From Pseudogymnoascus verrucosus (Eukaryota): DNA of 29,416 nt. A program made the position numbers and the translations under genes. This document shows, one piece after another, positions 5,873 to 29,416 of this stretch. Under the pieces are notes generated by a model. It searched no databases. It had not been told where the DNA came from and saw only the letters and a program-made list of their open reading frames with translations. The stretch lies in assembly GCA_001662655.1 (NCBI GenBank), contig KV460287.1; one strand, given 5' to 3'. Each line of letters begins with the position of its first letter. The first letter of the stretch is position 1.

Positions 5873-6140
5873 ACCTCACGGCCATTACTTACGACGTATC
5901 TTCTCTAGGCCTACGGTAATAGTAATAATCGGCGACTGGTAAGCCCCCATGCCAATGGAGCCTCAGCCATGACAATTTCTCCCATACTCGCACATGCTAT
6001 GTAAACTTGCATGCCATACGTCGCAGCTCGCTCACCTTTAAATTGCATAGCTGCTGCCATTAAATTGCCGTTTAACAGGTCCGCCCTGATACCTTCATTA
6101 AACTCGTATCTGGTTCCGAATAAGCTAATTCACTATCAAC

Positions 6141-7079
6141 ATGACTCAATCACTTGTCCCAGATACCACCTTGCCAACCGAAATCCCAGAGTCTCGCCAA
6201 TCAGCAGCTAATGCTCCCGTATCAAGCCTGTTCTCACTCAGCAAGAGAACAGTGATTGTCACGGGCGCTGGTCGAGGTCTAGGCATCGTGCTCGCTGAAG
6301 CAATTCTCGAATCTGGTGGCGACGTTATATGCCTCGATATTCTGCCAGCTCCAAGCAAAGACGAGTGGACTCGAATTGAGCAGACCCAGAAAACTTCCGG
6401 TACATATTGCAGCTACCATCAGTGCGATATCACCGACGAAGATGCTGTGACAGCAACTTTGACGGAGGCCGCAAAAGCTGCTTCGAAGAGGGGAAACCCA
6501 ATACGCGGGCTCATTTCGTGTGCCGGCATTCAGCAAATGCTGGATGCGATTGATTACCCTTTGGATGGTTTTAGACGGATCCTCGAGGTCAATGTCACTG
6601 GAAGCTTCTTGATCGCAAAGCATACTGCACGAATCCTATGGGATGAGGGTAACTCTGGCAGCATTGTCTTCATTGCTTCTATGTCTGGACAAATAGCCAA
6701 CAGAGTATGTGAAAAAATCTTCCTCGATCGGCTCATACTCACAATTGCTAACTCACTCAATCAGGGCATCCATTGCTCGGCTTATAACACATCCAAAGCT
6801 GCAGTGCAACAAATGAGCAGGTCGCTTGCTGTAGAATGGGGACAGTATGGCATCAGAGTGAACACACTGTCCCCGGGATATATCCGTACATCCATGACCG
6901 ATCAGCTGCTTGCAGAGAAGCCAGAAATTGAGAAGCTCTGGATGGCTGGTGCACTTCTCGGACGACTTGGTGCTCCAGAGGATTTCAAGGCTCCTGCAAT
7001 TTACTTGCTTACAGATGGTTCGTCTTTCATGACAGGAGCTGATTTGCGTGTGGACGGAGGACATTGCGCATCAGCATAA
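6141..7079 (+). CDS. Classical short-chain dehydrogenase/reductase, D-arabinitol dehydrogenase/sorbose reductase-like; one 60-nt intron (6705-6764), 292 aa when spliced
   Basis: TGAGRGLG Rossmann motif, Asp after beta-2 (CLDI, NAD-type), SCAGI, ASMSG, catalytic YNTSK, IRVNTLSPGY, DGG. Intron GTATGT...GCTAAC...CAG. Confidence 0.93.
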   Translation: MTQSLVPDTTLPTEIPESRQSAANAPVSSLFSLSKRTVIVTGAGRGLGIVLAEAILESGGDVICLDILPAPSKDEWTRIEQTQKTSGTYCSYHQCDITDEDAVTATLTEAAKAASKRGNPIRGLISCAGIQQMLDAIDYPLDGFRRILEVNVTGSFLIAKHTARILWDEGNSGSIVFIASMSGQIANRVCEKIFLDRLILTIANSLNQGIHCSAYNTSKAAVQQMSRSLAVEWGQYGIRVNTLSPGYIRTSMTDQLLAEKPEIEKLWMAGALLGRLGAPEDFKAPAIYLLTDGSSFMTGADLRVDGGHCASA

Positions 7080-10279: not shown

Positions 10280-12101
10280 TTATCCTTCACGATCGCGCTT
10301 TTGATGGAAGGAGTCCGTTTCCGGGTTGTAATCAAACTCCTTGTAGTCGGCACCATAGGGTTTCTAGTCTCGTGTCAGCTGCTTCAACTTTACTGACTTA
10401 TGTTGCACCTACGGGCTCAAGCAGATACACTGTACCCAGTGGAATATCAACGTTCGCAGAAACATAGCTTTGCATCCCTCTACAGTAGGCTAGTAGAACG
10501 CGAATGACAGCCGATCCTCCGATAAATAGGACGTGTCCTGTCACACGCTCCAGCTCGAGGATGATAGATCGAAGCCGTTTTGTCACATCACTATACCCCT
10601 CGCATCGAGTACCAGGATATCCTGTTGAAGTATGGTTCAGCTGTGTGTCAGAGGCCCGTTGCTTGACCTCAGCATCTGAAAGTCCACTAAGTATCCCGGC
10701 GCTCAAGTCGTCAAGCATACGCATATGCTCGATTCGATATCGTGCACTGTCAAAGAATTTTGCGGTCTGAATACTCCGCTGCGTCATGGAGGTCCACAGG
10801 TGAAACCTTTTTGGCGATTTATCTGCGGATAGGCGCAAGGAATCGCCAGCTTCTTCTAGTCTCTTTTGTTGCCGGTTCCATGTGTCCCGTTCCTGGTCAA
10901 TAAACCGGGATAATGCAGCGGCATATTTGACGCCATGTGGACTGAGACCAGGATCGTGGCTGACTTTGCCAGAAAGATTGTCGTTTGATTCGCCGTGCCG
11001 TGTGAGCCAGACTTGACGACCAGCAAGATTGAAGTGTTGGAGATAGCCAACAACCTGTGTCGCCAGAAAACTTTTGATATTGTGTGTGATGAACTTCCTC
11101 CCAACGTCAATCATTTGGCAGTAGGAGACGCCTAGGCGTTCTTCAATATTCCCTACGGGGGTGTATTTCTTTTGGTACATTGCGACACGTCTCCGAAAAT
11201 CTTCTAAGGCTTTGACAGGATCTTGATCTCTGTAATCTGGGTTCGACATCTTGAGTAGCATGTTCGATTGCAGAAGCTAGTAGGTTAAATCAGCTTTGCA
11301 TTATAGACTGAAATTGATCGCTAATATACGTACAGCTTCATCAAAACACTGGCTTTCCAAGAATAATACCTGCAAATTTGACCGTCCCCTCTCTTGTACC
11401 CTCGCAATGATCTTTCTCCTTCGCTCAATTGTGCTGTTGGTCGCATCGAAAATTGCAACAGAACCCCCTTCGTTCAACAGATAATCAAGCGACTCGTCTA
11501 AAGTTTCCATAGCAATTTGTTCCCGAAGTTTGCGAGCCTGAAGGTTGTCAGGGTTAAAGAACCCCGCTGAGTGGGTGCCATGGTCTAACGAGGCTTGGTA
11601 CGCCTCTGTGGACATCAAGCACGGGGCAGCCGATAAATCAAGTTGCCTACCTCCGACTTTTCGGCGCCGATTGCCAACATTAAATATCTTTGTTTCGTGC
11701 TGTAGCCAATTCAGGTATCTACAAACCTTATTGGTCACGTAGCTTTTGCCCCGCGCAGGCAACCCAACCATAACAATTACCAACTTTGCATCCACGGATC
11801 TTTCTATTTCGGTCGGAGACAGGAGGTTCGCATTGTTCTGAATACTTGAGGTAGGTGGGCATGAGGCGGATGGATTTTCAGTTGATCTTTTACGTTTGAG
11901 GTTCCCAGTTGTGATTAATCCACGAACCAGCGGTACGTCTTTTCGTCCATGGTTAGAGTCTCCGCAGATTTCAACACATCCTCGAGGCACGTGAGAATGA
12001 ACGTTGGTTTCTGGGCCGCGAGATGAAATATTTAGCCCCGAGGACATGGCATTGTCGGGCATTTGGTAAGGGTTTATTCCAGAATCCGACAGGGCTGACA
12101 T
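10280..12101 (-). CDS. 6-phosphofructo-2-kinase/fructose-2,6-bisphosphatase family protein (Pfk26-like paralog); 3 exons
   Basis: Exons 12101-11334, 11276-10413, 10363-10280. Kinase P-loop MVGLPARGKS, IFNVGNRRR, FDATNST, FLESQC; phosphatase-domain RHGES; C-terminal EPKPYG. Start codon uncertain (frame is open to 12320). Confidence 0.9.
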
Positions 12102-12583
12102 TGTTTGCGGTTCAATATCTGTCGAAGGGAGAAGATAGATGCGTAGGTTTAGCAAGTTGGCAAGGTTCAAATTAAAAGAATTCTTGAATTGATATATGTT
12201 AACAGTGTCGTTTGAAAATCTTTTGCATACCCGAAGTACGACCTCTGGAGACCTCATCACAAAGTCTAATCTGCTAAAATCGAGATTCTGGGCTTCGCCG
12301 TTTTCTCCTGCGCTTGACAATTCCCGAATCGGAGTTCCTAGCCGCTTCAGCTAGCGCCTATTTGCCTAGAACACCAATGGGAACGCCTAACCTTTCAAAA
12401 TGGACCAATCTATTTCAACACCATTATCGGATTACCCTAAAAGGAAATTCTAAGCGCCGGATTCATACAGAGAACGTCACGTGACATGAGTAGAAACAAC
12501 TGGTATATATGTATTGCAATGTGCACTGAACTTTATATCTGTCAGACACTTTTCAAGCTCATATATACCTGCCTACGTTTAAA

Positions 12584-14934
12584 ATGACTCCTTCACTCGA
12601 GGTCTTAGATATTGACCCGAAACCGACCCTGAACCCGTACAGTGTTAATTCGATCAAGAATGAAGATGGTGACAAAAATGATTTGGTATTAAAGGTATTT
12701 AGATGTCTTATCGCCGATCTTTGCGAGCAATTCAAAGGTGGACATCCTGGGTACGACCCCTATTGTTGTGTTGTGATCTTATTTTCACTAATGTAATGTA
12801 GAGGTGCCATGGGCATGGCAGCAATTGGAGTCGCCCTTTGGAAATACGTGATGCGATTCTCACCTCGCAATCCCTCATACTTCAACAGAGATCGTTTTGT
12901 CCTATCTAATGGTACGCCTCCCGTCTGAATAGTAGTTTTAGTATTTGAATTTCTGACATTCTTCTTTAGGACATACATGCCTCTTTCAGTATACTTTTAT
13001 GCACCTAGTCGGATATGACAATATGACTTTAGATCAATTAAAGTCATATCACTCGAAAAGAGTTGATTCTCTTTGCCCTGGTCATCCCGAGATCGAGCAC
13101 GAAGGTATTGAGGTTACGACTGGTCCCCTTGGTCAAGGTGTCGCAAATGCAGTTGGTCTGGCTATGGCAAGCAAGCACCTTGCAGCTATCTATAATCAAC
13201 CAGGCTTTCCTGTCGTTGACAACATGACTTGGTGCATGATAGGGGACGCTTGCCTCCAGGAAGGTGTTGCTTTAGAAGCAATTTCTCTTGCCGGCCACTG
13301 GAAGCTGAATAACCTTGCTATTATTTACGACAACAATCAGATCACCTGTGACGGCTCCGTTGATCTAGCAAACACTGAGGATGTGAATGGAAAGATGCGA
13401 GCGTCTGGCTGGAATGTGATAGATGTCTTTGATGGCGTGTTCGACGTCAATGGCATACTTGAGGCACTCATTACGTCCCGCGCAAGTGATAAACCAACAT
13501 TCGTCAATGTCCGCACTATTATTGGTGTCGGAAGTGCGGTAGCTAACAACGCAAAAGCTCATGGTGCAGCTTTTGGATCCGAGGCAGTTGCGAATATGAA
13601 AAAGAGCTTTGGCATGGATCCCGAGGCACACTTTGTAATTCCAGACACTGTCTATGAATATTTCCACGAAGTTCGCTCCAGAGGAGCGAGATATGAAGCA
13701 AACTGGAATTCTTTGGTCGCCTCATACGCTAAGAGCCACCCTCAGTTGGCACGAGAGTTTAACCTGCGAGTTCGTGGCAAAATGCTGGACGACTGGTCCA
13801 AATATATTCCATCAAAAGAGAGCTTTCCAACCGGACCCACCCCTTCCAGGAAGTCTGCTGGTATCGTGTGCAATCCTCTAGCACAAAACTTGAAGAACTT
13901 CATGGTTGGGACTGCAGACTTGTCTCCGTCAGTAAATATGATCTGGAAAGATAAAGTAGATTTTCAAAATGTAAGTTTATATCCTTCTATGCTCAGTCAT
14001 GAAAGTCTCTAACAGTTCCTAGCCCGAGCTCAAGACTGCTTGTGGAATTAATGGCGATTACAGTGGTCGCTATATCCACTGGGGAATCCGTGAGCACGCG
14101 ATGGCGTCTATTTCGAATGGCCTTGCTGCCTTCAACAGGGGTACTATACTTCCTATTACCTCAACATTCTTCATCTTCTACATTTACGCCGCCGCAGGAA
14201 TTCGCATGGGTGCCTTGCAAGGATTGCACCAGATTCATATTGCAACACATGATAGTATTGGCACGGGAGAGGATGGTCCAACGCATCAGCCTATTGCTCT
14301 TCCCTCCTTATACCGGTCCATGCCTAACCTTCTATATATTCGCCCCTGTGATACTGAAGAGGTAGCAGGCGCCTTCATAGCTGCTCTCAACGCCACCTCT
14401 ACACCATCAATAATCTCACTCTCTCGTCAGAATCTCCCTCAGTACCCAGCACACACCTCTAGAGACGGCGTCCAACTTGGTGCTTATGTCTTTTCCGAGC
14501 AGACCGGTGCAGAGGTTACCCTCATTGGTGTCGGCGCCGAGATGGTTTTCGCGGTTGAAACGCGCGATATTCTCGCAAAAGAATATGGTATCAAAGCTCG
14601 CATTGTCAGCTTCCCATGTCAACGCTTGTTCGATCAACAATCACGCGAATATCAGCAGGAAGTATTGCAATATCGTGCCGATCGACCAATCGTGGTGATT
14701 GAGGCCTTTGCAATAAACGGCTGGGAGAGGTACGCCGACGCAGGCGTTAGCATGAGCAGCTTCGGCAAGAGTTTGCCTGGTGGCACTGCGTACGAACATT
14801 TTGGATTTGATGGGAAGGTGATTGCACCGAAGGTCAAGGCCCTGGTAGAGAAGGTACGCAAAGAAGGCGTTCGTTGTTTGAGGGGCAATTTCCGGGACTT
14901 GAATGGGATTATGGGTTATGGATTTGAGCATTAG
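12584..14934 (+). CDS. Transketolase of the dihydroxyacetone synthase (formaldehyde transketolase)-like clade; 4 exons
   Basis: Exons 12584-12750, 12802-12911, 12970-13970, 14023-14934. GGHPG, RDRFVLSNGHTCLFQY (DAS-type rather than TKL-type NGHACALLY), TTGPLGQG, ThDP motif GDACLQEG...YDNN, GIREHAM, HDSIGTGEDGPTHQP. Confidence 0.93.
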
Positions 14935-15395: not shown

Positions 15396-17086
15396 CAAAG
15401 CGAGTAGCAGCCGGCCCGAACCATTGTTGTGAGCGGAAATGAGGCTTTCCCGCAGGCTCTTATCAGGGAGCCGCCAAAGCCCCAAAGCGCCAGTTCTATT
15501 TATCTCTATCTGTGTTGCATCGTGGGGTTTTTCTGCTCCACCATGAACAGTTATGACGGATCTCTTCTAAACTCTCTTCTAGAGAGTAAAGACTTCCTTA
15601 AAGCATATAATGAGCTAGTTCTGGCATCTGGGCTGGAATCGCCACGAATATGTACACCATCGGTGGTGTTTGTGCTCTCCCATTTATCGGCCCTGCTATC
15701 GATACTTGGGGACGCGGAGTCGGCATGCTCATCGGTTCAGCGAGTGTCGTGTTAGGAACAGTGATTATGAGGACGGCTATTAACCGCTCTAGTGTGGGTC
15801 AATTTGAGGGTGGTCGTTTCCTTGTTGGGTGGGGCGTTCCCATTGCTTGTGCTGCTGGGCCCATGTATGTCGTCGACGTCTCCCATCCGGCATATCGTGG
15901 TATTGTCGGTGCCTTTTATAACACCTGGTGGTAGGTTTTCCATTATCATTTCGTGATCAGAGTGGTACAGAGGCTCATATAATTCCACAGGTTCACTGGG
16001 TCAATCTTAGCCAGCGGTGTCACCCGTGCTACGCATTCCCTGCCAGGCCACCAATCATGGATGACTACTCTCTGGTTCCAAATTGCTTTCCCAGGACTGG
16101 TATGCTTGGGGGCTTTATTCCTCCCCGAGTCTCCAAGATGGCTCCATGTCAACGGCAAATCTGAACAAGCACGGGCTATGCTCACTCGATTCCACGGAGA
16201 GGGCAACCCCGATAGCGTGTGGGTAACTTTTCAAATGCAGGAGTATGAGGAGTATCTTGAATTAGACGGCTCCGACAAACGCTGGTGGGATTACCGTGCG
16301 CTATTCAAGAACAAAAATACCTGGAACCGCCTATTCTGTAACTGTGCTATCCAAGCCATGGGCCAAGAAGCTGGCAACTGTGAGTCTGTCTAGAACCTCC
16401 GCAATATATACATACTGACGATAACTCATAACAGCCGTCCTCTCCTATTTCCAAGCCGCTGCGTTCGAAACAGCCGGTATCACAGACGAATTCACGCAAC
16501 ACAACCTTACTCTCGGTAACGCGTGTGCCAACAATTCTTCTTTGCGCTCATCGGCGCCACGCTTGTCGACAAAATCGGCCGCCGGCCATTGCTCATGTTC
16601 TCTAACCTCGCTTGCTGCGTAACCTGGGCCTCTATGTGCATAGCCGCCTTGATCTTCGCCTCGTCAGGACAGACCAATGTCGCCGCCGGGACTGCCACCC
16701 TCGCCTTCCAGTTCATCTTCGGAGCCGCGTACTCCATCGGTTTCACGCCACTACAAGCTCTTTATCCAGTCGAAGTGCTGTCCTTCGAGATGCGCGCTAA
16801 GGGTATGGCGTTCGGCTCGCTCGTTATGAATGTCGTGTCGATTTATAACAACTACGTCTGGCTCGTTGTCCTCAAGCGAATTGCATGGAAGTCTTTCATC
16901 ATTTTCTGCATCTGGTGCTTTTGCCAGGCGGTTATCACCTATTTCTTTATTCCGGAGACGAAGAACCGAACTTTAGAGGAACTCGATATCATCTTTGACT
17001 CGGATAGCCCCGTTAAGACGTCCCTGGAAAAGCGCACAGTTGGTGTTACTGCTCGTGGAGACGTTGTGGAGTACGGCGATGAGTAG
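15396..17086 (+). pseudogene. Lactose permease/cellodextrin transporter-family MFS pseudogene
   Basis: Motifs YDGSL, PESPRWL, GSDKRWWDYRALF, DKIGRR, FTPLQALYPVEVLSFEMRAKG, PETK. Frameshifts near 15612 (1 nt missing) and 16524 (extra TG), in-frame TAG at 15405-15407, no usable upstream ATG. Introns near 15930-15990 and at 16380-16434. Confidence 0.85.
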
Positions 17087-18388: not shown

Positions 18389-20702
18389 ATGTCAACCGAA
18401 TTCGAAACACGCAGGGAATTTTCTCATCAGTCTTTGCGACGTTATTGGCCCAAGCGGTTCACAAAACGCCAACCGTTTAATCCCAACAGCGAAAATCAAA
18501 CATACCTCGAATATCTTCAAATCGAACAGTATCTCGGCGAAGGGGTTTCGGACGAGGAGGATGAGGAGGAGGAGGGGAATGAAGTTGAAGCTGAAGAGGA
18601 AGATGGCGCATCGTGTGAGGATGATGGGTCTTCAAATGCGCCGGAGGATGACGTCAACGAGCAGTCTAAAGCCGCCGATGCTAGCAATCAGATAAGCGAT
18701 GTCAGACGCTTTATGAGAGGGATGGAAAGGGATGAGGATTTCCTGGATGATTACGATATGGTTGATGAGGTGGCGAAATTTTGTGAAGGAGGATCTGATG
18801 GGCCCTTTCGAGCACGTGAAAAACATGTGGCAATTCTGGACGAAAGAAACATTGCCGGTACTATCATCGACAAGGGAGGATACTGCAGGACAAACTTAGA
18901 GCCTTTGACCTTGGAACAGTTATTCGACAAGTTGAGCAGAAAGGTAATTCAAATCTCATGCTAGTATAAGAACTCATGATAACTGATTCAAACTGCACAG
19001 CGCCTTCGAGTTGAGTCTGACTCGACTAACGCATTCGATGATGAGGAAATTGACGCGGAGAGGAGAATAGTGTAAGTCCTAGGGCTGATGTGTTCTATCT
19101 TATATAATGTGGCTAATCTGTCTAGTTTCATCTCTGATTTGGACTCATTCACAATTCAGGCCATTATAAAAACGGCATCACGCACCCAAGCCCCGGCTTT
19201 AAGGGATCTTTTTCACAAGTACCTGACGCGTAAAGCATCTATAGGTGTTACTATAGTAAGTACTTTCAGATCAAACGTCCATTCCAGATATCACTATGAC
19301 TTATACTAATTTTCACGTGGTAGTCAAACGGGTTCCCCGTCTTTACTCTCGAGTTACATATGCCATACTATGTATTAGGAAAAAGCAAAACGGCAAGCAG
19401 AGATGCTCGAAGGAAATCTGATGGCAGTCCCTTAAGACAGTCACGGAAATTAGACTTCCTGTCCAGGTCTCTAGATGCATCGAAAGGTTCAAACCCAACA
19501 GATCAGCACTACTGGCTACATGAGGCCCAGATTTCAATTGTTGTAACGGGGGTTAACAATTGGGTGTGGACTGCCTATGGATTTGTCGATACTTATTTTG
19601 GGTCCAAGGGGACAGTGGAAGACTACGATAAATTGAAGGGACGACACTGGGAACGAGAAGACCCTCTTGCGGCTGGGCGGCTGAACGGTGGTGAGCCCAT
19701 ATGGACGCCTAGAGAATACTTCTTGAGAGTGGCTCAAAGCCGCATACGAGAGGTTCTGAAGGAATGGAACCGGATAGTCCGCACGGTTACGGAAGAGGTA
19801 GAAGGGTACGTATTGTGTGTAGACGCTGTCTTGGTGTGGATTTTCACTGTGGATTAGTGGCGACCATGGGCTCTGTTCTCCATTTTCTAATTTCATGCTT
19901 TACTGTGATTTCGGGTGCTGAAGGCTAATTGACTTACTCACAAACAGGTCCAGAGATCTGGTATACAGCTCGTCTAAGATTACAGCTCAAAAGTTAGAGT
20001 TTCTAGAACGGCGGAACAGTCAAATGGCAGCTCTTTCAACGCAACTGATCGGTGGTCTTTCTGAGACCATTCAAGCATGGGAAGGATTCCGGACAACAGA
20101 GGCCAACTATTTTCTTTTTGATGAGGTTTCAACTGCCGAACCATCCCTCGAAGCCTCATTGAACGCTATTGATAAAGAGTTTTCGAAATTAATGCCGGGT
20201 CTACGGAAGTTAGAGCAATTGAAGAAAGAACTGTGCGACCGTAGGGAGGGTGTAAGTCATCTCCAAAACTCTGCATATAGAGGGCTAATAAACGTAACAG
20301 CTCAATGCTTATCTGAGTCTCGATGGACGCGCCGCTGCCAGGCAGCTCCAGGACCTCACTGTTCTCGCCATAGCAAGTTCCCCTGGAAAGTATCGTATTT
20401 GGGCAGCATGTCTAACCATATGTTTTTCCAATTCATAGGTATTCTCTCCTCTACTTATTACCTCGGCCCTGTTCAGCGCCACGGGAGTGCTACCTTCCCC
20501 GGGCCTGGGGAAGTTCATATATGTGTTGGTTGTCGTCACGGGCACAATGGTGGCGATGCTCCTAGTCTTATACCACTGGCGATACTGCTTACAGCGAGGG
20601 GTTGACTATATGCAAAGCGCAGTTAGTTCTTTCAATGAACTACTGAATGGAAACAGGATTTCCAGCGACGCTGAGTCGTGGGACATTGAGAAGGGGCCAT
20701 AG
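18389..20702 (+). CDS. Uncharacterised fungal protein with acidic N-terminal tract, helical region and two C-terminal TM helices (CorA-like topology); 7 exons
   Basis: Exons 18389-18943, 19001-19071, 19126-19255, 19324-19805, 19948-20251, 20301-20372 and 20439-20702 splice into one open frame (last intron GC-AG). Ends LTVLAIVFSPLLITSALFSAT...FIYVLVVVTGTMVAMLLVL. The CorA-like assignment is inference; no GMN motif. Confidence 0.75.
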
Positions 20703-21212
20703 AAGGCGAAAGTAGGGTAAGCTTTCGACAAAGTTGCTTTTGGCTATTTACTACTTGCGAATTGAATGCCCTGGAAATTATCTATATTGGTCATTTTTCT
20801 CTGTTCTGCGCACACATAATGCACTCTCTAAAAAGCCTCGAGGGTTTTGGCATTGATACAGGCAACGTTGGCTGTGCTTTCGGGCTTTGGCAGCTCACCC
20901 AACCACATGAACAGTTCGCTCATCTGCGGAAACTAGGATTATTCGGTGCTCAAACCGCCTCATATCCAACGCAGAATTATTGCTCGGTGTACGAAGCACT
21001 ATATAAATCGGTTATGTGGTTCGCCTTGCATTCATGCCCAACGACCCAACCAGCGTCATCGACAATAATGTGCCAACGCACCGTAAACCATCGCATGACC
21101 GAACCGAGCGACCTAAGCAGCCTCTATATTCTCACGAGTAGAAAACAAACTCCAGCTCAAACACGGCCTTCTTTACCTCAGCCCTTTCAATGTAAACCCA
21201 AGCCTCACCTAG

Positions 21213-23207
21213 ATGGTTCTAATGGCAACCTCTTCACTCCCTGGCCTTCAAACCTTTGTAGCGCAAATCGGGCTCGATCCACTCCCGACTTTTGCAACAG
21301 CAGATGCTTTGAATAATCCTATTGATATCTACCATTCATATCTCGCAGAGCGCTTGCAGACGCTTGTCGAGTGCGACCCAGATGTCGTCTACCATTCTAT
21401 TCAACTTTCAAAGACAATTGAAGATGGAGACTTAGATATCGTTTTGCCGAAGCTAAAACTAGCTGGCGTAAAGCCCAAAGAGCTCGCAGGCGAGCTTCTC
21501 AAAAAAGTTGGTAAATTCCTTTATTTTAATTGAGGTGGCGGTCCAAAATCTAACGTAACTCTTTGATAGTTTCTACCTCATCCCCTCTTTGCTGCCCCTT
21601 TCAAAGATGGCGTCCACATTCGAGTCCTTTTCTCCACCAAAAATACTCCGCGACTCCTTCTCCCCTATGTCAACGACCGGAAGGCCACTTATGGCAACTT
21701 TCCAGCTCTTGGACTACAAGACCAAGCCGAATCTAAAAGTAAAAAGGTCATCGTCGAGTTCGCACGGCCGAATATTGCAAGGGAGTTCACCATAGACCAC
21801 TTGAGAAGCTCGATCCTTGGTGCTTATGTATCCAACATACATGAAGCAATGGGCTATTCTGTGGTTAGGGTTAACTACTTAGGAGATTGGGGAAAGAATC
21901 TCGGTCTGCTCGGAGTGGGCTGGCAGAAGCATGGCTCGGAAGAGATTGTCAATGAGCAGACAGATCTGTTTAGATATATACACGACTTGTATGCTAAGAT
22001 GGAAGAGGAGCTTCAGCCAGAGCAGGATGCGAGAAAGAAGGCTCGACAAGATGGCCAGGATACATCGGTTCTTGAAAGCCAGGGCCTATTCGCAGAACGG
22101 GACGCGACCTTTAAGCAAATGGAAGACGGCGAGCCAGCAGCGATGGCCTTGTGCGAGAAGCTCCGAGCTATCACTATCGAGTATTACATCGAGACCTATG
22201 CAAAACTCAATATCAAGTTTGATGAATATTCTGGCGAATCCCGAGTTAGTCTTGATTCAGAAGCAATTGCCCAGGTCGAGTCGATGTTGAAAAAGAATGA
22301 TGTTTGGGAAGAGAAGGATGGGGCATGGGTTATTGACTTCGACAAGCACGGTGCGAAGCTAGGTACTGCAGCCATTCGAGATAGAAACGGCTCCACGACG
22401 TACCTGCTCAGAGACATTGCGACAGTCTTCGACCGACTCAAAACCCACGAGTTCGACAAGATGGTATACGTTGTTTGCGAACAAGACGTGCATTTTCGAC
22501 AAGTTTTCAAAGCCGTTGAGATCATGGGTCGTGGAGATGTCGCGAACAAGCTGCAACATGTCACCTTTACCAGAGCTAATAGTCCTGTAGCTCAACCTGG
22601 AAGTACCCAACTGCTAGGTGACATCCTCGATCAATGCGAAAATCATATGCGTGATGCAATGACTGCGAACCCGGATGAGTATCAGATTGAAGATCACGAT
22701 GCAGTTGCAAAAGCGATGGCAATAAATTCCCTAGTTCTCCATCAGCTCTCTCTGAAGAAGGGCGACAGCAACGATCTTGACTTCAATCTCCTTACCTCTC
22801 CAACAGGCGAGACAGGCACAAATCTACAACTGTGCTATGCAAAGCTCTGCTCTGAAATTGCCAGCGTTGGGCCGTACCCAGGTCCAGATGAAATTCCCGA
22901 TCTCGACTACACCTCACTCTCGCAACCCCCTTATTCTGATGTACTCCGACTGATAGCCAGGTATCCAGTCGCGACCCAATTCGCTTTCGAAAAATTGGAC
23001 CCGGGCATAATTATTCTTTATATGTTCCTAGTTATCGATGAGCTAAGTGCTTGTCTTGCTATTGATGAGTTTGAGAGAGTTGAGGGTGAGGGGGAAAGCT
23101 CCTCTGCTGGGTTGAAGCATCTAGCTCGAGTGGTTATGTATGAAAACATTCGACAGGTGTTGGAAAATGGTTTGAAGCTGCTTGGGATTACTCCTATTAG
23201 TCCATGA
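21213..23207 (+). CDS. Arginyl-tRNA synthetase-like protein with degenerate catalytic motifs; 2 exons
   Basis: Exons 21213 (or 21222)-21506 and 21570-23207 are in frame. ArgRS hallmarks VEF..PNIA..F...HLRS, NYLGDWG, FDEYSGES, DRNGSTTYLLRDIA, KMVYVV, LENGLKLLGITP. Confidence 0.9.
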
Positions 23208-23743
23208 GTAATGTGCTGGCTGTACTGTTCAATTCAGACTTGATGTTAATTCAGGAATTACCAACCTATGTATGTGGATTTCAATAGACTCTGCAATCGA
23301 TTTTGGCTGAATCATATGGTATAAGCAGAATTACAACCGTCGAGTCCCGTTTGTCATATCCGAACACCTAATGTCAAGCGTTGCCCCATTTTTCAATGCA
23401 TTCCACCTCCCCGTACACACCAGGAATACCCCTCCTACCCGGGAAGGACTTTAGGCCGCCCAGCCCGAATTCCCACCCCTGTTTGGCCAGTCACACTACC
23501 AACAGACCAACACCAGCGGCCGCTTACAGGCCAGGCCCCTTCCAACCCGCGCGGTACCTCACAGCCAAAACAGTCCACCGCAAACAAAAACAGCTCTCAC
23601 CACAACGCAAACCCGCCAAAATACCACGACCAGATGCGCCAGCCCTCATCCGAACCACCTTCCCCAAATGCCGCCTCCGACCCGCCCCCCCCTCGCCTCA
23701 ATAAGCAACCCAGCACCGTACCTCAACACCCTCCAACACAATT

Positions 23744-24049
23744 CCATACACGCTGCATGTCCTGTGCTGCCGAGAAGAACACGATAATATCTCCAACGCT
23801 CTCTGCACCAGGCGCGAAAGCTTTTCGCTCCCTCCTTCTCAATCCTCCCACCAACCTCCGACGTCCTCACTTTGTGGTATCCCTGCATTCAAAGTTTAAT
23901 TATCCGACTTTTCGACTGCAATTGGTAGTTGACGCGAAGCAGTGGGGTTTCGGTTTGGCAGGAGCAGAAGCTTTCGCATTTGGTGCAGAGAGCGTCGGCG
24001 ATATTATCGTGTTCTCTTCTCGACAGCACAGGACGTACAGCGTGTATGG
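23744..24049. repeat. Imperfect inverted repeat: arms ~23744-23831 and 23961-24049, ~130-nt spacer
   Basis: CCATACACGCTGcAtGTCCTGTGCTGcCGAGAAGA--ACACGATAATATC...CTCTCTGCACCA..GCGAAAGCTT matches the reverse complement of 23961-24049. Confidence 0.9.
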
Positions 24050-24539: not shown

Positions 24540-25010
24540 ACGTATTTCACGGGCGAGCTGGTTACTTGGGCGAGCTGGTCACCAAAACACCAAAATTTGA
24601 CTATTACTACTACTACTACACCACTACCCTATATAATAACCCTTATTCGATCGTAATCAATTCCTAGCGCTTCTCGCACGTACAGGCGTTATGCCCTTTA
24701 GTGCCACATACTCTATAGTGCTGCTGTCGGCCTGTAGAACCCACCTACTAAATGGTCTCACTTGCTACCTCCATACAGACTTGAGCATCTACCTTAGCAC
24801 TCTAAAGTATATCCTCTCCCTCTTGTACGGAGAGGCTTCCCCCTTACATTATATACCTCTTACGCTTCCTTTCCCTCCTCTTCTTCTATTCATTTGCAGC
24901 TTATAGAGCCTTAACTTCTACCTTTAGTAGAATAGCAGAATGCATCATAACCTAAGCTCCCTTTATAAGCTAGCTTAGTACATTATTAATTAAGCTAGGT
25001 AAGCTATTCT
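24540..25010 (-). mobile_element. 3' end of a RIP-mutated Fot1/pogo-type (Tc1/mariner) DNA transposon
   Basis: TA followed by TIR ACGTATTTCAC-GGGCGAGCTGGTTAC-TT-GGGCGAGCTGGTCACC (24540-24583, two internal direct repeats). Minus-strand relic EVKAL*AANE...YRVCGTKGHNACTCEKR is the C-terminal CCHC knuckle of Fot1-like transposases. Inner boundary approximate. Confidence 0.85.
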
Positions 25011-25012
25011 AA

Positions 25013-25618
25013 TGTTATATAACATAGTTCTTAATATACTTACGTAAACTATCTATACGTTACCTTACCCATTAATTAGATATAAACTAGCAGGATAATG
25101 CTATTAATTACAACAATAGACAACATAAGGGTAGACGCTTAATATAAATGAAAGTAATAACAGCCCATTATAACGCTATTATAGTCACCTTACTAAGTAT
25201 AGTATAAGATAATAGATTAACCTACCTACACCCTAAAACCCTAAGGCTATAGGCCTTACCTATAGAAACCTATAAAGACAGACCCTTAGGGTAAGTAGAG
25301 GCAAATCCTCTAAGAAACGGACTATCTACATATAAGAGAAAAAACCATAGGAGGAGCAGAGTCGTCTCTCTCTCCTAACGCTAGACAATGTTACATAGCT
25401 TCACACTAGTCTAAATTTACAAGATTAGCGCAAACGCTTTCTATTATAAGATAATATAAAGTAACTCTAAGTTCTTTATAATAAGTATCTATGAGATTAA
25501 CTAGATTATCTAGGAGAGGGAAGCAGCTAAGGATAAGGAAACGCTCTACCTTATTTAGGACAAGCTTCTATATATGCACTATAACTATTCTAATGTCTTT
25601 TTAAAGTTAGAATCTAAT
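25013..25618 (+). mobile_element. RIP-degraded retrotransposon fragments (gag/pol relics)
   Basis: TpA-rich. The right part translates ...IQDKLLYMHYNYSNVFLKLESN (read through a RIP stop), resembling the LP....DY.DVFSK segment preceding Gypsy RT. Left part unresolved. Confidence 0.5.
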
Positions 25619-26153
25619 TGTTACAGCTAGGGCTTTTAGCAGCACTATTGCTAACACCCTAAGTATAGTAGCTATAAACATGTTAGTAAGTTAACTACCC
25701 TTAAGGCAGGGTTAACATTAGGTAACAGAGTTTTCTTAGGCACTTGCTTCTATAGGTACTAGAGAATTCCTAGGCACCTAAGAATTGCTAGGTACTAGAT
25801 AGAGTAGGCACCTAACTCTTTCTAGGTACCTAACTATTATAAGGTACTAGACACAGTAGGTACTAGACTATTCATAGGCACCTCCTTATAAGAACCCTAC
25901 ATAATAGAATAGTAGGAATAGTAAGAATAGCAAAGGAGTTTGCTATTCTAACTATTCCCTTTAGTATAACGCTACTATATAAGTAGATAGTTAGTTCTTA
26001 GATAGGAGCTTTATGCTTAACTTAATATAGTATTTGTTATATACTATAACATGTTTTATAAAAGCCTTTATGTCTAATCCTCTACCTCCTCTATTAAGTA
26101 AACTAATGTAACGAAACCTTTATAAGTCTTATAGTTTAAGACCTAGCGTTACA
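25619..26153 (+). repeat. LTR (~535 bp), subfamily variant of the LTRs at 26238-26693 and 28885-29414
   Basis: TGTTACAGCT...GCGTTACA. The 3' part (from TAGTAGGAATAGTAAGAATAG) is nearly identical to 29172-29414. The 5' part is diverged but keeps AGG(T/C)AC(C)T repeats. Confidence 0.85.
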
Positions 26154-26349
26154 CCTAGTACCTACTAAATCATTCGTTGTGTTTTTATATCTAAAAACAA
26201 CCTATTAGTATGTAACTACACTATTAGAGGGGCTACTTATAACGCTAGGTCTTAAACTATAAGACTTATAGAGGTTTCGTTACATTAGTTTACTTAATAG
26301 AGGAGGTAGGGGATTAGACACAAAGGCTTTCGTAAAACACGTTATAGTA

Positions 26350-26401
26350 NNNNNNNNNNNNNNNNNNNNNNNNNNNNNNNNNNNNNNNNNNNNNNNNNNN
26401 N
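26350..26401. other. Assembly gap (N run) inside an LTR
   Basis: Run of N characters. Confidence 1.
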
Positions 26402-26806
26402 TCCTACTAATCTAATTACGTGTATGTCCTATAAGGGTGCTATACTTATTATAGGTACTTATTCCTATAGGTGCCTTTCTAAGGAGGCACCTTACTCTAT
26501 ATAGGTGCCTTTCCTAATAGGCACCTCTCTTTAGCTAGGTACCTTCTAAGAAAGGTACCTTTTCCTAAAGGTGCCCTCATTAACTAAGCTACCTATAATC
26601 TCTACGTCCATTTCCTACTACTAATTAGCTACAAGCTATTTAACTTTATTACTCTATCTTATAGCATATAGGTTACATGTTTTAGCTATAACACTACGTC
26701 CCCTCCCTTAAGGCCTAGTCCTATAGGCCATTACTAACTAAGAATCTACTAACCTACTTAAGCGTAGTAGGTCCCCTATATTTGTAGGGTAGGCAAGGCC
26801 ACAACT

Positions 26807-27361
26807 ATGTCTTCCTCTAAACACTTAAAAATCAAAGAACGTAAACTACTTACTAACTATATAACCTATAAAGGGGTTGAAATGCCTTCCTATTCCTACT
26901 ATAAGAAACGAGGTCTCTGCTACCTTGCTTCTACATCTTTAAAACGATGTAATGAATGTGTTCATTTAAATTCTTACAACTATAACGTCTCTAGCCCTTC
27001 TACTAGCAACTAGCAGTTACTATAGAAAGAAGAAGATTGTCTTTACCTTAAAACTCACATGACCTATGAAGCTGTAGCAACTGCTATAGCACGTCTTAAC
27101 CACCTTAAGTAACAGTAGGATCTTCTTAAGACCTAAGGTGCTAAGATGCTTCGCTATAGTCTAAAGACCTTTAACAAACTAGAGGAGGTAGAAGAACGTA
27201 AGTAGTAAGAAGCTAAAGCCTATAGTTACCTCGCTAGTCCTTCTATAACTAACCCTAGGAGCGCTACCCCTAAGCATAACTACCTATTAGCCCTTTCTCC
27301 TAGGTTCTTTAACTACTAGGGTGTTAATAGTAGAACTCTACTAGTAACTCTAGGCAGCTAA
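26807..27361 (+). pseudogene. RIP-mutated extra ORF of the Gypsy element, antisense to pol; Cys6 zinc-cluster-like motif plus coiled coil
   Basis: 555-nt frame from ATG 26807 to TAA 27361, interrupted only by TAG/TAA stops consistent with RIP of CAG/CAA/TGG/CGG. MPSYSYYKKRGLCYLASTSLKRCNECVHLNSYNY gives a six-Cys cluster if TAT/TAC are reverted to TGT/TGC. Followed by heptad-like ARLNHLK..DLLK..GAKML...LEEVEE. Confidence 0.7.
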
Positions 27362-28884
27362 GGTTTCCCCTTAACTCCTATAAGTTATCTATAGGTTTAT
27401 AGCCTCTCTATTTTATTAAAAACTCTTCTTAGCGTCCTACTAACCTTTTGTCTAGGATTGCTTTAACCTTATATTTAATAATCTCATTCTTAGGTTGAAG
27501 TTTAGTGTCTGTTGCAATTAGGGTGTCCCCTCTTACTAGTTCTAATAATAAGACATAAAACACTAGGTAGAGCTTAGAGTTCTTAGGTAGCTATAGCTTG
27601 TAATTAACTAAGCTAACTTTCTCTAATATCTTAAATAGTCCTAGTTTCTTAAAGTCCAACTTTATGCTTAGTCATTTCGTTTTAATGTATTTCTAGAGTA
27701 AGTATACTTTATCCTCCTCCTTAAAGGTAGGTTCTATACTACGCTTCCTATTTACATATGTAGTAGATCGTTTATTTAAGAACTAGATGTCCGTTACAAG
27801 TTGTTTCTAGAAGGAAAGTATTTTCTCAACTTTAAGTATTCCTTCCTTAGAACAAAATTTATCTAGCCTTAGCGTCTTATATGCCTCTAGTTACTATCTA
27901 TTGTTAGCAAAGAATAGTAAGACTTTCGTTACCTCTAACAGCGCTAAGTTATATGCAAATTCTACTAAGTGTAGGTACTAAACCTAGTTGTCCTATTCCT
28001 TATTAACGTAGCTTTATAGATATGCTTCTAACGTCTAGTTAGTTTGTTCTATCTATCTATCTATCTATAGATGAAAAGCTATAGACAGCTTATAGTTTGT
28101 TCTAAGCTGCGCTATAACTGTCTACTAGAATTTAGATGTAAAGAGCTTATCTCGATCTAAAATTATCTTGTCTAGGAGTCTATACACTACGACAATGACT
28201 TTTAAGAAGGTATAAGCTAACGCCTTCACGTCTAATGCCTCTATAAACAGCGTAAAGTAGGCTTCCTTTATAAGTTGGCAGTTAGAGACCATAATAGCGT
28301 CTATAACAAATCCTGTCATTAGTTCCTTTAATGGCAGTAACTTAACAATGAAGTTAATTGCTATTAAGGACTATACTTGTCCTAGTGTTAGTAGTGACTT
28401 TAAAAGTCCATATAGTACGTGTCTATTTGCTTTTGATTTCTAGCAAATGTTACATCCTAATATAATTGTTTCTACCTACTTCCTTAAACCTAGGAAGTAG
28501 TAGTGTTATACGATTCGTTTAAAGGTTTATGTTACTCCCTAATGACTATGTGCTAGCAACGAGTGTTGTTCTTATACTAGCAGGCGTCTTATTTAACTTA
28601 GGACATACACTAACCCTTTAAATCAAATTAACCCTTATTCGTTAATAGAGAAGTTTCCTTTAACCTTATTTAAGGTTCACTTTGCTATTTTGTCTATTAC
28701 ATAAGCGTTCTTAAGTCTCTGCTTAAGTTCTATGTCTTCTATAATAGCAATTATAGCTAGTAGTTCATTGTATTATATTCCTACGTCTATTTTCTTTAAT
28801 ATTACTCTAGGTCTTTCTTCCTTTAGGCTAATGTAGTTAGTCCTTCTACTAAGAGCGTCTACTCTTACATTCTTAGAGCCTTTG

Positions 28885-29414
28885 TGTTATAGCTAAAACA
28901 TGCAACCTATGTGCTATAAGATAGAGTAATAAAGTAAAATAGCTTACGGCTAATTAGCAGTAGGAAATGGACGTAGAGATTGTAGGTAGCTTAGTTAATA
29001 AGGGCACCTTTAGGAAAAGGTACCTTTCTTAGAAGGTACCTAGCTAAAGAAAGGTGCCTATTAGGAAAGGCACCTATGTAGAGTAAGGTGCCTCCTTAGA
29101 AAGGCACCTATGGGAATTAGTACCTACAATAAGTGTAGTACCTCTTATAGGACACACACGTAATTAGATTAGTAGGAATAGTAAGAATAGTTAGAGAGTC
29201 TACTATTCTAACTATTCCCTTTAGCATAACGCTACTATATAAGTAGATAGATAGTTCTTAGATAGGAGCTTCGTGCTCAACTTAATATAGTATTTTGTTA
29301 TATACTATAACGTGTTTTACGAAAGCCTTTATGTCTAATCCCCTACCTCCTCTATTAAGTAAACTAATGTAACGAAACCTCTATAAGTCTTATAGTTTAA
29401 GACCTAGCGTTACA
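28885..29414 (+). repeat. LTR (530 bp), inverted near-identical copy of 26238-26693, interrupting pol
   Basis: TGTTATAGCT...GCGTTACA with TATATAAG box and tandem AGG(T/C)ACCT units. Differs from the other copy mainly by C/T and G/A transitions. Confidence 0.92.
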
Positions 29415-29416
29415 AC

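What the first reader, a model, noticed from the sequence alone, without database searches (positions are those of the whole stretch)
21213..23207. Intact arginyl-tRNA synthetase paralog with the HIGH motif replaced by TIDH: likely pseudo-synthetase
Seen: a full-length uninterrupted ORF. VEFARPNIAREFTIDHLRS (TIDH at 21789-21800) replaces VEFSSPNIAKPFHAGHLRS. The MSTR/KMSKS-equivalent loop is absent (FTRANSPVAQPGSTQLL), GPYLQY reads GTNLQL, and the conserved terminal Met is lost (ends PISP). Established: these elements serve ATP, arginine and anticodon binding in class I ArgRS. Inference: it cannot aminoacylate normally, yet it lacks the stops and frameshifts seen in the nearby pseudogene, so it may be kept for a non-canonical role (tRNA binding or sensing, decoy, scaffold).
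Basis: partly seen in the sequence, partly recalled or inferred. Interest (0 to 1): 0.7.

Follow-up and report, generated by a model that had tools for sequence, protein, structure and literature searches.

The report
Fungal arginine-binding pseudo-tRNA-synthetase paralog
This fungal gene is a spliced, transcribed and selectively conserved copy of arginyl-tRNA synthetase that keeps the arginine pocket but has lost the ATP-handling residues, and it belongs to a large, apparently undescribed family that often sits beside one kind of membrane-protein gene.

Summary
The motifs are as reported (TIDH at 21789-21800, no MSTR-type loop, GTNLQL, end PISP). The ORF is not uninterrupted. Three in-frame stops lie in a 63-nt GT..AG intron (21507-21569), which contigs of relatives in two sequencing runs skip. 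The spliced product has 640 aa and an ArgRS fold (yeast 1bs2 E 4.5e-87; model TM 0.82).

It is not a pseudogene. dN/dS is 0.12-0.18 against two metagenome orthologs, and 26 of 40 listed strain differences are synonymous.

In its clade (73 sequences) the seven L-arginine-contacting positions are kept almost without exception. The HIGH-loop Lys (1/39), first His (0/39) and Gly (2/39) are lost. All 22 canonical fungal ArgRS keep them.

The clade is acidic (net charge about -27, against -3.5 for canonical). A profile search places it in a well-supported group of 53 non-canonical representatives.

A CorA-like membrane-protein gene lies just upstream in the window, in Pseudogymnoascus annotations and in two metagenome contigs. 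Three distant representatives carry it as an N-terminal part.

Best reading: a non-aminoacylating arginine-binding protein. The biochemistry, and a canonical ArgRS in the same genome, remain untested.

The parts
21222..21506 (+). Exon 1 (95 codons, MATSSLPGLQ...ELLKK): most of the Add1-like N-terminal domain
   Evidence: Alignment with annotated orthologs P0001, P0002, P0004 and others. Contigs of runs X1, X10 and X18 start aligning at 21217. L001 and L002 have the same start.
21507..21569 (+). Intron, 63 nt, GT..AG, containing the three in-frame stops (21531, 21564, 21567)
   Evidence: Translation and sequence. The X10 contig joins 21506 to 21570, 'skips 63, GT..AG', and the X1 contig also skips 63 nt. 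L001 and L002 have an intron at the same place.
21570..23207 (+). Exon 2 (545 codons plus stop): end of Add1, Rossmann catalytic domain, DALR-type helical domain
   Evidence: Pfam tRNA-synt_1d 1.2e-57 and DALR_1 3.7e-6. Yeast ArgRS 1bs2 E 4.5e-87 over 531 residues. AF2 model pLDDT 86.3; Foldseek 1bs2/1f7u TM 0.82-0.83.
21780..21800 (+). Degenerate HIGH region R-E-F-T-I-D-H: Arg in place of the HIGH-loop Lys (yeast K156), and TIDH in place of HAGH (yeast 159-162)
   Evidence: Clade counts: K 1/39, first His 0/39 (T in 35), Gly 2/39, second His 39/39. Canonical sequences: 22/22 for all four.
21756..22484 (+). Span holding the retained L-arginine pocket codons: E (21756), N (21771), H (21798), Y (22401), D (22413), R (22434), Q (22482). 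These equal yeast E148, N153, H162, Y347, D351, R358, Q375.
   Evidence: Mapping from the 1bs2 alignment. The roles of the E. coli equivalents D118, N123, H132, Y313, D317, R324 and Q341 were read in passages of PMC3956977. Clade counts 37/38 to 73/73. R289 (the R358 equivalent) is invariant in A4.
22584..22595 (+). PVAQ in place of the MSTR (KMSKS-equivalent) loop
   Evidence: alignment. R411 is kept in 3 clade members against 21/22 canonical. This loop has pLDDT below 50 in the model.
22815..22832 (+). GTNLQL in place of GPYLQY (omega-loop region at the start of the helical domain)
   Evidence: Neither canonical Tyr appears among the six commonest residues at its clade column; canonical 21/22 and 22/22.
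18389..20702 (+). Upstream, same-strand, multi-exon gene for a 625-aa CorA-like membrane protein: the conserved neighbour
   Evidence: P0121 maps here in four blocks. It is syntenic in L001 and L002. Locus tags are consecutive in three Pseudogymnoascus annotations. Three distant representatives carry a homologous N-terminal part before the ArgRS-like part.

Best explanation
The gene encodes a functional, non-aminoacylating descendant of fungal cytosolic arginyl-tRNA synthetase, a pseudo-synthetase.

Shown here:
- It is spliced and transcribed in close relatives.
- It evolves under purifying selection.
- It keeps the whole ArgRS fold.
- It keeps every residue known to contact L-arginine.
- It has replaced the residues that handle ATP and the transition state: the HIGH-loop Lys, the first His and the Gly of HIGH, and the MSxR loop.
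- It has become strongly acidic.

Inferred: it still binds free L-arginine (or a close guanidino analogue) in the old active site, but cannot make arginyl-adenylate and probably binds tRNA poorly. It would therefore act as an arginine-binding sensor or regulatory subunit whose output goes through protein partners. The most likely partner is the CorA-like membrane protein encoded immediately upstream, with which the family is repeatedly linked.
For: Expression and splicing. Contigs 95-99% alike in runs X10 and X1 skip exactly the 63-nt intron. Contigs of a soil metatranscriptome (X18, RNA on record) cover most of the CDS. None of the 4 runs shows an indel inside the CDS.

Selection.
- 26 synonymous against 14 non-synonymous among the 40 listed differences, out of 206 in all.
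- dN/dS 0.12 (NG86) and 0.16 (YN00) against L001 over 637 codons; 0.14 and 0.18 against L002 over 261 codons.
- 237 of 508 columns are at least 85% conserved in the clade, against 296 in canonical ArgRS.
- The window copy departs at only 2 of 103 near-invariant clade columns.

Pocket kept: E148 37/38, N153 38/38, H162 39/39, Y347 73/73, D351 73/73, Q375 70/73. R358 is invariant in A4. Residue roles come from PMC3956977 passages.

ATP side lost: K156 1/39, H159 0/39, G161 2/39, R411 3. Canonical sequences keep these in 21-22 of 22.

Acidic shift. pI 5.09 and net charge -27 in 12 clade members, against pI 6.62 and net -3.5 in 13 canonical ones. The shift is spread over all domains, and 11 conserved canonical Lys/Arg are lost. 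DALR_1 scores 33-44 bits in 7 clade members against 82-104 in 5 canonical ones.

Fold..

Family. 53 non-canonical representatives fall on one side of a 95%-supported branch, next to Pezizomycotina canonical ArgRS.

Neighbour linkage..
Against: - No biochemistry was done. Loss of adenylate formation is inferred from residues alone.
- Thr at the first HIGH position occurs in active TrpRS (TIGN; recalled, not checked here).
- ArgRS enzymes in general tolerate a missing KMSK motif (passage in PMC3956977).
- H162, E294, Q375 and D376 remain, so some nucleotide or A76 binding, or altered chemistry, is not excluded.
- All three tRNA-contacting domains are still conserved inside the clade, at 0.59-0.73 mean pairwise identity, with Add1 at 0.71. 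That is unexpected if tRNA binding were simply abandoned. Net charge is only a proxy.
- A canonical ArgRS in the same genome could not be checked, because no genome is held.
- The tool only guesses that X1 and X10 are RNA runs. The spliced contigs are the evidence, and a processed DNA copy is not formally excluded.
- Only 40 of the 206 differences were shown.
- Clade membership of partial sequences was assigned by me from the motif display, not from a tree.
Confidence: 0.55

Rival explanations
1. Repurposed enzyme. The old active site still binds arginine or the arginyl moiety and performs new chemistry without the canonical ATP step, for example transfer from Arg-tRNA (as cyclodipeptide synthases do) or ligation to another acceptor. 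Newly fixed residues next to the pocket would take part.
For: The pocket and the whole three-domain architecture are conserved, including Add1. There are 38 clade-specific fixed differences, among them Cys398 (64/73; canonical Ser) and His403 (73/73; canonical Tyr) flanking the Q375 equivalent. Precedent: CDPSs are derived class-I aaRS domains that lost HIGH and gained a catalytic Ser (passages of PMC2922099).
Against: The strong acidic shift and the weakened DALR signal argue against tight tRNA binding. No biosynthetic genes lie beside it in the window; the neighbours are transporters, an SDR, a transcription factor, 6PF2K and transketolase. No extra Pfam domains appear in 20 long relatives. 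Cys398 is not universal in the clade.
Confidence: 0.2
2. It is still an arginyl-tRNA synthetase, a divergent second enzyme (backup, stress-specific or inhibitor/canavanine-resistant) whose unusual motifs are tolerated.
For: Full-length ArgRS architecture with the arginine pocket, the second His of HIGH, E294, Q375 and D376 retained. Public databases name clade members 'arginine--tRNA ligase'. ArgRSs can lack KMSK (PMC3956977).
Against: The clade lacks the HIGH-loop Lys, the first His and the Gly of HIGH and the MSxR Arg all at once. These are kept in 21-22 of 22 canonical fungal sequences and, except for the Arg (69/70), by definition in the 70 canonical representatives. The Gly is Asp in the window, placing a negative charge where ATP phosphates would lie (inference). 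The replacement for Lys is not fixed (R, Q, T, G, S). The net charge of about -27 is atypical for a tRNA enzyme.
Confidence: 0.1
3. Dead paralog that regulates the active ArgRS or another enzyme by heteromerisation ('prozyme' logic), with arginine binding incidental.
For: Catalytically dead paralogs that activate their active counterparts are known (abstract of PMC5201418 in the listing). The surface is conserved across all domains.
Against: ArgRS works as a monomer in the solved yeast and bacterial structures (titles; otherwise recalled). The near-perfect conservation of the arginine pocket would then be unexplained. Nothing here links it to the canonical enzyme.
Confidence: 0.08
4. Young pseudogene or neutral relic that merely happens to be open.
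For: Catalytic motifs are degenerate. The window copy has Cys at a Trp (position 290) that is otherwise near-invariant in both clades.
Against: dN/dS 0.12-0.18. 26 of 40 listed differences are synonymous and there are no CDS indels in 4 runs. Intact orthologs exist at 63-94% identity in many taxa. Spliced contigs exist. The clade is as conserved as canonical ArgRS, 0.68 against 0.70 mean identity.
Confidence: 0.03

Closest known systems
Canonical fungal cytosolic arginyl-tRNA synthetase (yeast ArgRS, PDB 1bs2/1f7u)
   Same: Same three-part architecture and fold (E 4.5e-87, TM 0.82-0.83). Identical arginine-contacting residues. Same N-terminal start and intron position as canonical relatives. 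The nearest canonical sequences in the tree are Pezizomycotina ArgRS.
   Different: Only about 45% identity. The HIGH-loop Lys, the His and Gly of HIGH, the MSxR loop and both Tyr of GPYLQY are replaced. About 23 more negative charges. DALR score roughly halved or lower.
HisZ (HisRS paralog, regulatory subunit of ATP-phosphoribosyltransferase) and the HisRS-like domain of Gcn2; both recalled, not examined here
   Same: aaRS-derived proteins that no longer aminoacylate but keep ligand (amino acid or tRNA) binding and act as sensors or regulators. This is the logic proposed here.
   Different: They derive from a class II synthetase, their partners are known, and HisZ lacks the anticodon-binding domain. 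Here the parent is class I ArgRS, all domains are kept, and the partner is only suggested by gene order.
Cyclodipeptide synthases (CDPS) and MshC: class-I aaRS-derived enzymes of secondary metabolism
   Same: Class-I Rossmann active site reused after loss or change of the synthetase function. CDPSs lost HIGH (PMC2922099 passages). MshC appears as a distant fold match (ranks 21, 37, 49).
   Different: CDPSs are small single-domain proteins related to TyrRS/TrpRS with a catalytic Ser. MshC keeps ATP-dependent ligation. The window protein is a full-length ArgRS look-alike with no biosynthetic neighbours.
Fungal arginine-containing cyclodipeptide synthases (RCDPS, AnkA/AvaA)
   Same: Fungal, arginine-related and tRNA-linked (commentary PMC11610942, read whole).
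   Different: [quoted passage not shown] The window protein has strong ArgRS Pfam domains, so it is not that family.

Membership tests
Arginyl-tRNA synthetase (class I, active enzyme) | ArgRS domain architecture and fold (N-terminal Add1, Rossmann catalytic domain, DALR helical domain) | tested here: met
   Pfam tRNA-synt_1d 1.2e-57 and DALR_1 3.7e-6. 1bs2 E 4.5e-87 over 531 residues. AF2 pLDDT 86.3 with Foldseek TM 0.82-0.83 to 1bs2/1f7u. The N-terminal Pfam model is not hit, but it is below cut-off in 5 of 5 canonical fungal controls as well.
Arginyl-tRNA synthetase (class I, active enzyme) | HIGH signature (HxGH) | tested here: not met
   TIDH at 21789-21800. Clade: first His 0/39, Gly 2/39. 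Canonical: 22/22.
Arginyl-tRNA synthetase (class I, active enzyme) | Transition-state Lys/Arg: HIGH-loop Lys and/or the MSxR (KMSKS-equivalent) loop | tested here: not met
   Arg replaces the Lys and PVAQ replaces MSTR. Clade: Lys 1/39, loop Arg in 3. Canonical: 22/22 and 21/22. The catalytic role of the HIGH-loop Lys is recalled (Sekine et al. 2001); I did not see that paper.
Arginyl-tRNA synthetase (class I, active enzyme) | L-arginine pocket residues | tested here: met
   E, N, H, Y, D, R and Q are all present and conserved at 37/38 to 73/73 in the clade. Roles from PMC3956977 passages.
Arginyl-tRNA synthetase (class I, active enzyme) | tRNA(Arg) binding and anticodon recognition | tested here: inconclusive
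   Net charge -27 against -3.5, 11 conserved basic residues lost, DALR bits 33-44 against 82-104. Yet all domains stay conserved within the clade. No binding data.
Arginyl-tRNA synthetase (class I, active enzyme) | tRNA-dependent arginine activation and aminoacylation | not testable with these tools
   Needs ATP-PPi exchange and charging assays.
aaRS-derived pseudo-synthetase / non-canonical paralog | Arose by duplication of a synthetase gene and forms its own clade | tested here: met
   Trees. The T-type plus RTDH clade has support 100, separate from a canonical clade with support 100. 53 non-canonical representatives lie on one side of a 95% branch whose nearest neighbours are canonical Pezizomycotina ArgRS. 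FastTree only, midpoint root.
aaRS-derived pseudo-synthetase / non-canonical paralog | Maintained by selection and expressed despite lost catalytic motifs | tested here: met
aaRS-derived pseudo-synthetase / non-canonical paralog | A canonical synthetase for the same amino acid coexists in the same genome | not tested
   No genome is held for this window. None of the 120 listed homologs gave a same-organism pair of clade member and canonical enzyme. Coexistence is expected on grounds of essentiality only.
Cyclodipeptide synthase (CDPS) / fungal RCDPS | Small single Rossmann-like domain (CDPS), or a protein without recognisable domains (RCDPS) | tested here: not met
   A full-length ArgRS architecture with strong Pfam hits and no CDPS family hit at E <= 0.01. 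The RCDPS description comes from PMC11610942.

The most novel reading that the evidence does not exclude
The ArgRS-like protein is the soluble arginine-sensing subunit of a two-gene module with the CorA-like membrane protein encoded next to it. Arginine occupancy of the fossil active site would gate or regulate an ion or solute pathway. The 50-odd acidic ArgRS-like subfamilies of filamentous ascomycetes would then be a diversified set of amino-acid or guanidino-compound sensors built from a synthetase scaffold.
Probability: 0.15. Interest if true: 0.8.

Novelty: new variant of a known kind. Interest (0 to 1): 0.62.

Why it matters
Pseudo-synthetases that keep ligand binding but not catalysis are known for only a few synthetases. 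I found no description of an ArgRS-derived one, or of this family, in six full-text searches.

- The family is large. 60 of the 130 fully covered representatives among the best 150 profile hits are non-canonical.
- Public records carry the name 'arginine--tRNA ligase' for it. That probably mis-states its function and inflates ArgRS counts in fungal genomes.
- The near-perfect retention of the arginine pocket gives a directly testable hypothesis: arginine binding without charging.
- The recurrent link to a CorA-like membrane protein of unknown function gives a handle on two uncharacterised fungal families at once.

Tried and rejected
- Own-genome search for a canonical ArgRS: no genome is held.
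- RCDPS idea: rejected, because those proteins lack recognisable domains.
- Biosynthetic-cluster or self-resistance idea: no core or tailoring enzymes stand beside the gene, and resistance copies would need intact catalytic motifs.
- Search for fused, longer forms with the search for homologous proteins: none at E <= 1e-20 (the tool calls this weak evidence). The later profile search did find three.
- Pfam on 20 long relatives: only the two ArgRS domains.
- Cross-pathway-control sites (TGASTCA): none near the gene; 2 in the window against 3.5 expected.
- AF2 model of the neighbour P0121: pLDDT 49.7, unusable, so no fold search was run. Pfam gives only sub-threshold CorA hits on relatives.
- Complex prediction of the ArgRS-like protein with the neighbour's cytosolic part: never ran. 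The queue was full and the tool was then declared unavailable, so there is no result either way.
- Delagoutte et al. 2000 could not be read. Yeast residue roles therefore rest on PMC3956977 passages and on recall.
- Parts of the gene without contig cover in X13 and X18 carry no meaning.
- A mitochondrial-ArgRS reading was considered and dropped. The N-terminus matches that of canonical cytosolic relatives from the first residues, and the catalytic residues are missing.
Full report
WHAT IS THERE.

The window looks fungal, and the best protein hits carry Pseudogymnoascus (Leotiomycetes) names. The reported motifs are real. In frame 0 of 21213-23207 the translation reads ...VEFARPNIAREFTIDHLRS......FTRANSPVAQPGSTQLL......GTNLQL... 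and ends ...PISP plus stop. TIDH is ACC ATA GAC CAC at 21789-21800.

The reading frame is not uninterrupted. It has stops at 21531, 21564 and 21567. Annotated orthologs run ...ELLKK|FLPHPLF... without a break (alignment A1). This fixes an intron at 21507-21569 (63 nt, GT..AG) and a conserved start at 21222.

The gene model is therefore exon 1 at 21222-21506 and exon 2 at 21570-23207, giving 640 aa, the length of the closest annotated ortholog P0001 (94% identity).

The second exon scores Pfam tRNA-synt_1d 1.2e-57 and DALR_1 3.7e-6. It aligns to yeast ArgRS 1bs2/1f7u at E 4.5e-87 over 531 residues. It folds with mean pLDDT 86.3 and pTM 0.88 into a model whose best PDB matches are 1bs2 and 1f7u (TM 0.82-0.83). 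The only segments below pLDDT 50, apart from the first four residues, are the MSTR-equivalent loop and a short acidic insert.

IS IT ALIVE?

I laid contigs of four public runs on 21000-23400.
- A 1436-nt contig of run X10 (about 95-96% alike) joins 21506 directly to 21570 ('skips 63, GT..AG').
- A 440-nt contig of X1 also skips 63 nt.
- Contigs of X18, a soil metatranscriptome recorded as RNA, cover most of the coding sequence at 90-97% likeness.
- No run shows an insertion or deletion inside the CDS. The only two lie at 23273 and 23313, behind the stop.
- The tool only guesses that X1 and X10 are RNA. The intron-less contigs are the evidence.
- The X1 contig carries adapter-like letters about 20 nt upstream of the ATG. 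This suggests a transcript end there and a transcription unit separate from the upstream gene (weak evidence).

Of the 206 differences between the relatives and the window, 40 were listed. I class 26 as synonymous and 14 as non-synonymous, with 27 at third codon positions.

One metagenome scan gave two orthologous loci. L001 is 63% identical over the full length and L002 is 73% identical but partial. Both are intact, with an intron at the same place.
- Window against L001: dN 0.22, dS 1.87, ratio 0.12 (NG86) or 0.16 (YN00) over 637 codons. dS is near saturation here.
- Window against L002: ratio 0.14 or 0.18 over 261 codons.

The 90%-identity clusters of P0001 and P0003 hold orthologs from at least eight named Pseudogymnoascus strains or species. 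The window's copy departs from near-invariant clade columns at 2 of 103 places (W290C, L413I), which is within the normal range for the clade. A pseudogene reading is therefore not tenable.

WHAT HAS CHANGED AND WHAT HAS NOT.

I numbered residues by counting along the yeast alignment. Passages of PMC3956977 give the E. coli contacts.
- N123 and Q341 (yeast Asn153 and Gln375), with A121 and H132, bind the main chain of L-arginine.
- D118, Y313 and D317 bind the guanidinium group.
- R324 holds D118 in place.
- The yeast equivalents by alignment are E148, N153, H162, Y347, D351, R358 and Q375.

All seven are present in the window protein. In the clade I assembled from the homolog list (73 sequences including the window; fewer cover the N-terminal sites) the counts are E 37/38, N 38/38, H 39/39, Y 73/73, D 73/73 and Q 70/73. 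The R358 equivalent is invariant in a 40-sequence alignment.

The ATP and transition-state side looks very different.
- HIGH-loop Lys (yeast K156): 1/39 (R, Q, T, G or S instead).
- First His of HIGH: 0/39 (Thr in 35).
- Gly of HIGH: 2/39 (Ala in 30, Asp in 5, including the window).
- Arg of the MSTR loop: kept in 3.
- The 22 canonical fungal ArgRS in the same alignment keep these positions in 21-22 of 22.

The retention of the second His fits its role in holding the arginine main chain rather than ATP. The catalytic importance of the HIGH-loop Lys is recalled from Sekine et al. 2001, a paper I could not see.

The clade is not a decaying one. 237 of 508 columns are at least 85% conserved, against 296 in canonical ArgRS. 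38 positions are fixed differently in the two groups, among them Cys398 and His403 beside the pocket.

A SECOND SIGNATURE: CHARGE.

Twelve full-length clade members have mean pI 5.09 and net charge -27. Thirteen canonical enzymes have pI 6.62 and net charge -3.5. Other non-canonical clades are equally acidic.

The shift is spread over Add1, both halves of the catalytic domain and the helical domain (-4 to -7 each). It includes 11 conserved canonical Lys/Arg lost and 11 new conserved acidic positions. DALR_1 scores fall from 82-104 bits (5 canonical) to 33-44 bits (7 clade members).

I read this as weakened tRNA binding. It is an inference, and one result cuts against it: every domain, Add1 included, remains conserved within the clade (0.59-0.73 mean identity).

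HOW BIG IS THE FAMILY?

A FastTree of 51 near-full-length homologs separates a canonical clade (20 rows, support 100) from the clade that holds the window (18 rows, support 100) and from further non-canonical clades.

A profile of the clade (A4) was searched against 1.84 billion representatives. It found 1756 proteins at E <= 1e-30, and the best 150 were fetched.
- 130 of the 150 cover all diagnostic sites.
- 70 of those are canonical (K + HxGH). Their median net charge is -1 and 69 of 70 keep the loop Arg.
- 60 are non-canonical. Their median net charge is -26, 13 of 60 keep the loop Arg, and 38 of 60 keep the full [E/D]NHYDRQ pocket.
- On a tree of these rows, 53 non-canonical rows including the window lie on one side of a 95%-supported branch. 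The adjacent rows are canonical Pezizomycotina-type ArgRS. The other 8 non-canonical rows are scattered among canonical ones.

These are FastTree trees with a midpoint root only. The representative library carries no names, so the taxonomic range rests on the named hits: Leotiomycetes, Sordariomycetes, Dothideomycetes and Eurotiomycetes.

THE NEIGHBOUR.

Immediately upstream on the same strand (18389-20702) lies a multi-exon gene. An annotated 625-aa hypothetical protein (P0121) maps onto it in four blocks (its middle exon is 100% identical). Relatives give only sub-threshold CorA hits at the C-terminal two-helix region, and one is named 'Cora-domain-containing'.

The same gene precedes the ArgRS-like gene in several other places.
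- L001 and L002 (tblastx).
- Three Pseudogymnoascus annotations with consecutive locus tags (V501_01226/27; VE01_10451/52 and ACLOAV_006846/47).
- Three further strains, which have merged gene models of 1164-1260 aa.
- Three of the 150 representatives (P0180, P0203, P0211), from different parts of the non-canonical clade. Each carries an N-terminal part homologous to P0121 (27-31% identity, E 1e-34 to 1e-59) ahead of the ArgRS-like part.

The junctions of P0180 and P0203 still show the ArgRS-like protein's own Met start. These may therefore be merged models of adjacent genes rather than true fusions. Either way, the order and orientation recur at deep divergence.

The ESM Atlas look-up for P0121 also returned an 81-member cluster without a Pfam family that is automatically named 'Arginyl-trna synthetase'. 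This is a lead only.

I could not test binding, because the complex tool never accepted the job. The neighbour's own model was too poor to use (pLDDT 49.7).

MECHANISM.

Shown: the gene is spliced, transcribed in relatives and under constraint. The ArgRS fold and arginine pocket are kept. The ATP-side residues are lost and the surface is acidic. The gene order with a CorA-like gene is conserved.

Inferred: the protein binds L-arginine but does not activate it and does not charge tRNA. It acts as an arginine-binding sensor or regulator, possibly together with the neighbouring membrane protein.

Rivals are new chemistry at the old site (CDPS-like logic; PMC2922099 passages), a still-active odd synthetase, a regulator of the canonical enzyme, and a relic. 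They are weighed in their own sections.

COMPARISON AND NOVELTY.

The closest known protein is canonical fungal ArgRS, whose active-enzyme membership test this one fails on two defining motifs. In logic it resembles HisZ and the Gcn2 HisRS-like domain (both recalled).

It is not an RCDPS, which the commentary PMC11610942 (read whole) describes as lacking recognisable domains. It is not a CDPS either.

Six full-text searches found no description of an ArgRS-derived paralog family in fungi.
- ArgRS, paralog, fungal, BGC.
- ArgRS, pseudo, HIGH motif, paralog.
- six 'ArgRS-like/homolog/paralog' phrasings. It returned 8 papers, none on this subject.
- Pezizomycotina. It returned 2 general reviews.
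- six accession or locus names. It returned 0 papers.
- pseudoenzyme terms. None of the 12 listed papers mentions ArgRS.

Subscription journals and supplements were not covered. I therefore rate the finding a new variant of a known kind.

LIMITS.

- No biochemistry was done.
- No own genome was available, so the coexisting canonical ArgRS is assumed.
- The trees are quick ones.
- Clade assignment of partial sequences was made by motif.
- dS against L001 is near saturation.
- Only 40 of 206 variant sites were visible.

Noticed in passing
window 18389-20702 (+): A multi-exon gene for a 625-aa CorA-like membrane protein of unknown function. Its apparent stops and frame changes recur in L001 and L002, so they are introns.
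   Followed up: yes
window 21213-21221: An in-frame ATG three codons upstream of the conserved start (MVL-MATSS). It is absent from L001 and L002, and the relatives' contigs diverge from the window there. It is probably not the native start.
   Followed up: partly
window 22152-22154: The window copy has Cys (TGC) where the other clade members and canonical ArgRS have a near-invariant Trp. The relatives' contigs read TGG here.
   Followed up: partly
window 23744-23823 and 23968-24049: An imperfect inverted repeat downstream of the gene, with arms of 35 and 48 nt that are 90-91% complementary. A similar stretch occurs in L001 at 12971-13190. It may be a small repeat element or a hairpin.
   Followed up: partly
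window ~25000-29416: An AT-rich tract (33-35% GC against 45-55% elsewhere) with a run of unknown bases near 26350-26410 and only short broken ORFs. L001 16565-16830 resembles 27465-27759. It looks like degraded repeat DNA. Pfam gave nothing significant.
   Followed up: partly
window 3456-4127 (-), 6129-7076 (+), 7805-9958 (+), 10401-12350 (-), 12957-14931 (+), 15983-17083 (+): Ordinary neighbours by Pfam: an MFS sugar transporter, a short-chain dehydrogenase, a fungal-specific transcription factor, 6-phosphofructo-2-kinase/histidine phosphatase, transketolase and a second sugar transporter. There are no secondary-metabolite core genes.
   Followed up: no
public records P0136, P0138, P0147; P0180, P0203, P0211: Gene models of 1066-1318 aa that run the CorA-like protein and the ArgRS-like protein together. 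They are either merged predictions or true fusions. Clade members are publicly named 'arginine--tRNA ligase', which is probably misleading.
   Followed up: partly
homologs P0083, P0087, P0107, P0111, P0113 and others: Further non-canonical ArgRS-like clades (HGKH, TGLH, DGNH and similar types) in Dothideomycetes and Eurotiomycetes. They are equally acidic. Some have a changed pocket (the D351 position is E or Y, the Q375 position is H), and some carry very acidic insertions (net charge down to -139). They may bind other ligands.
   Followed up: partly
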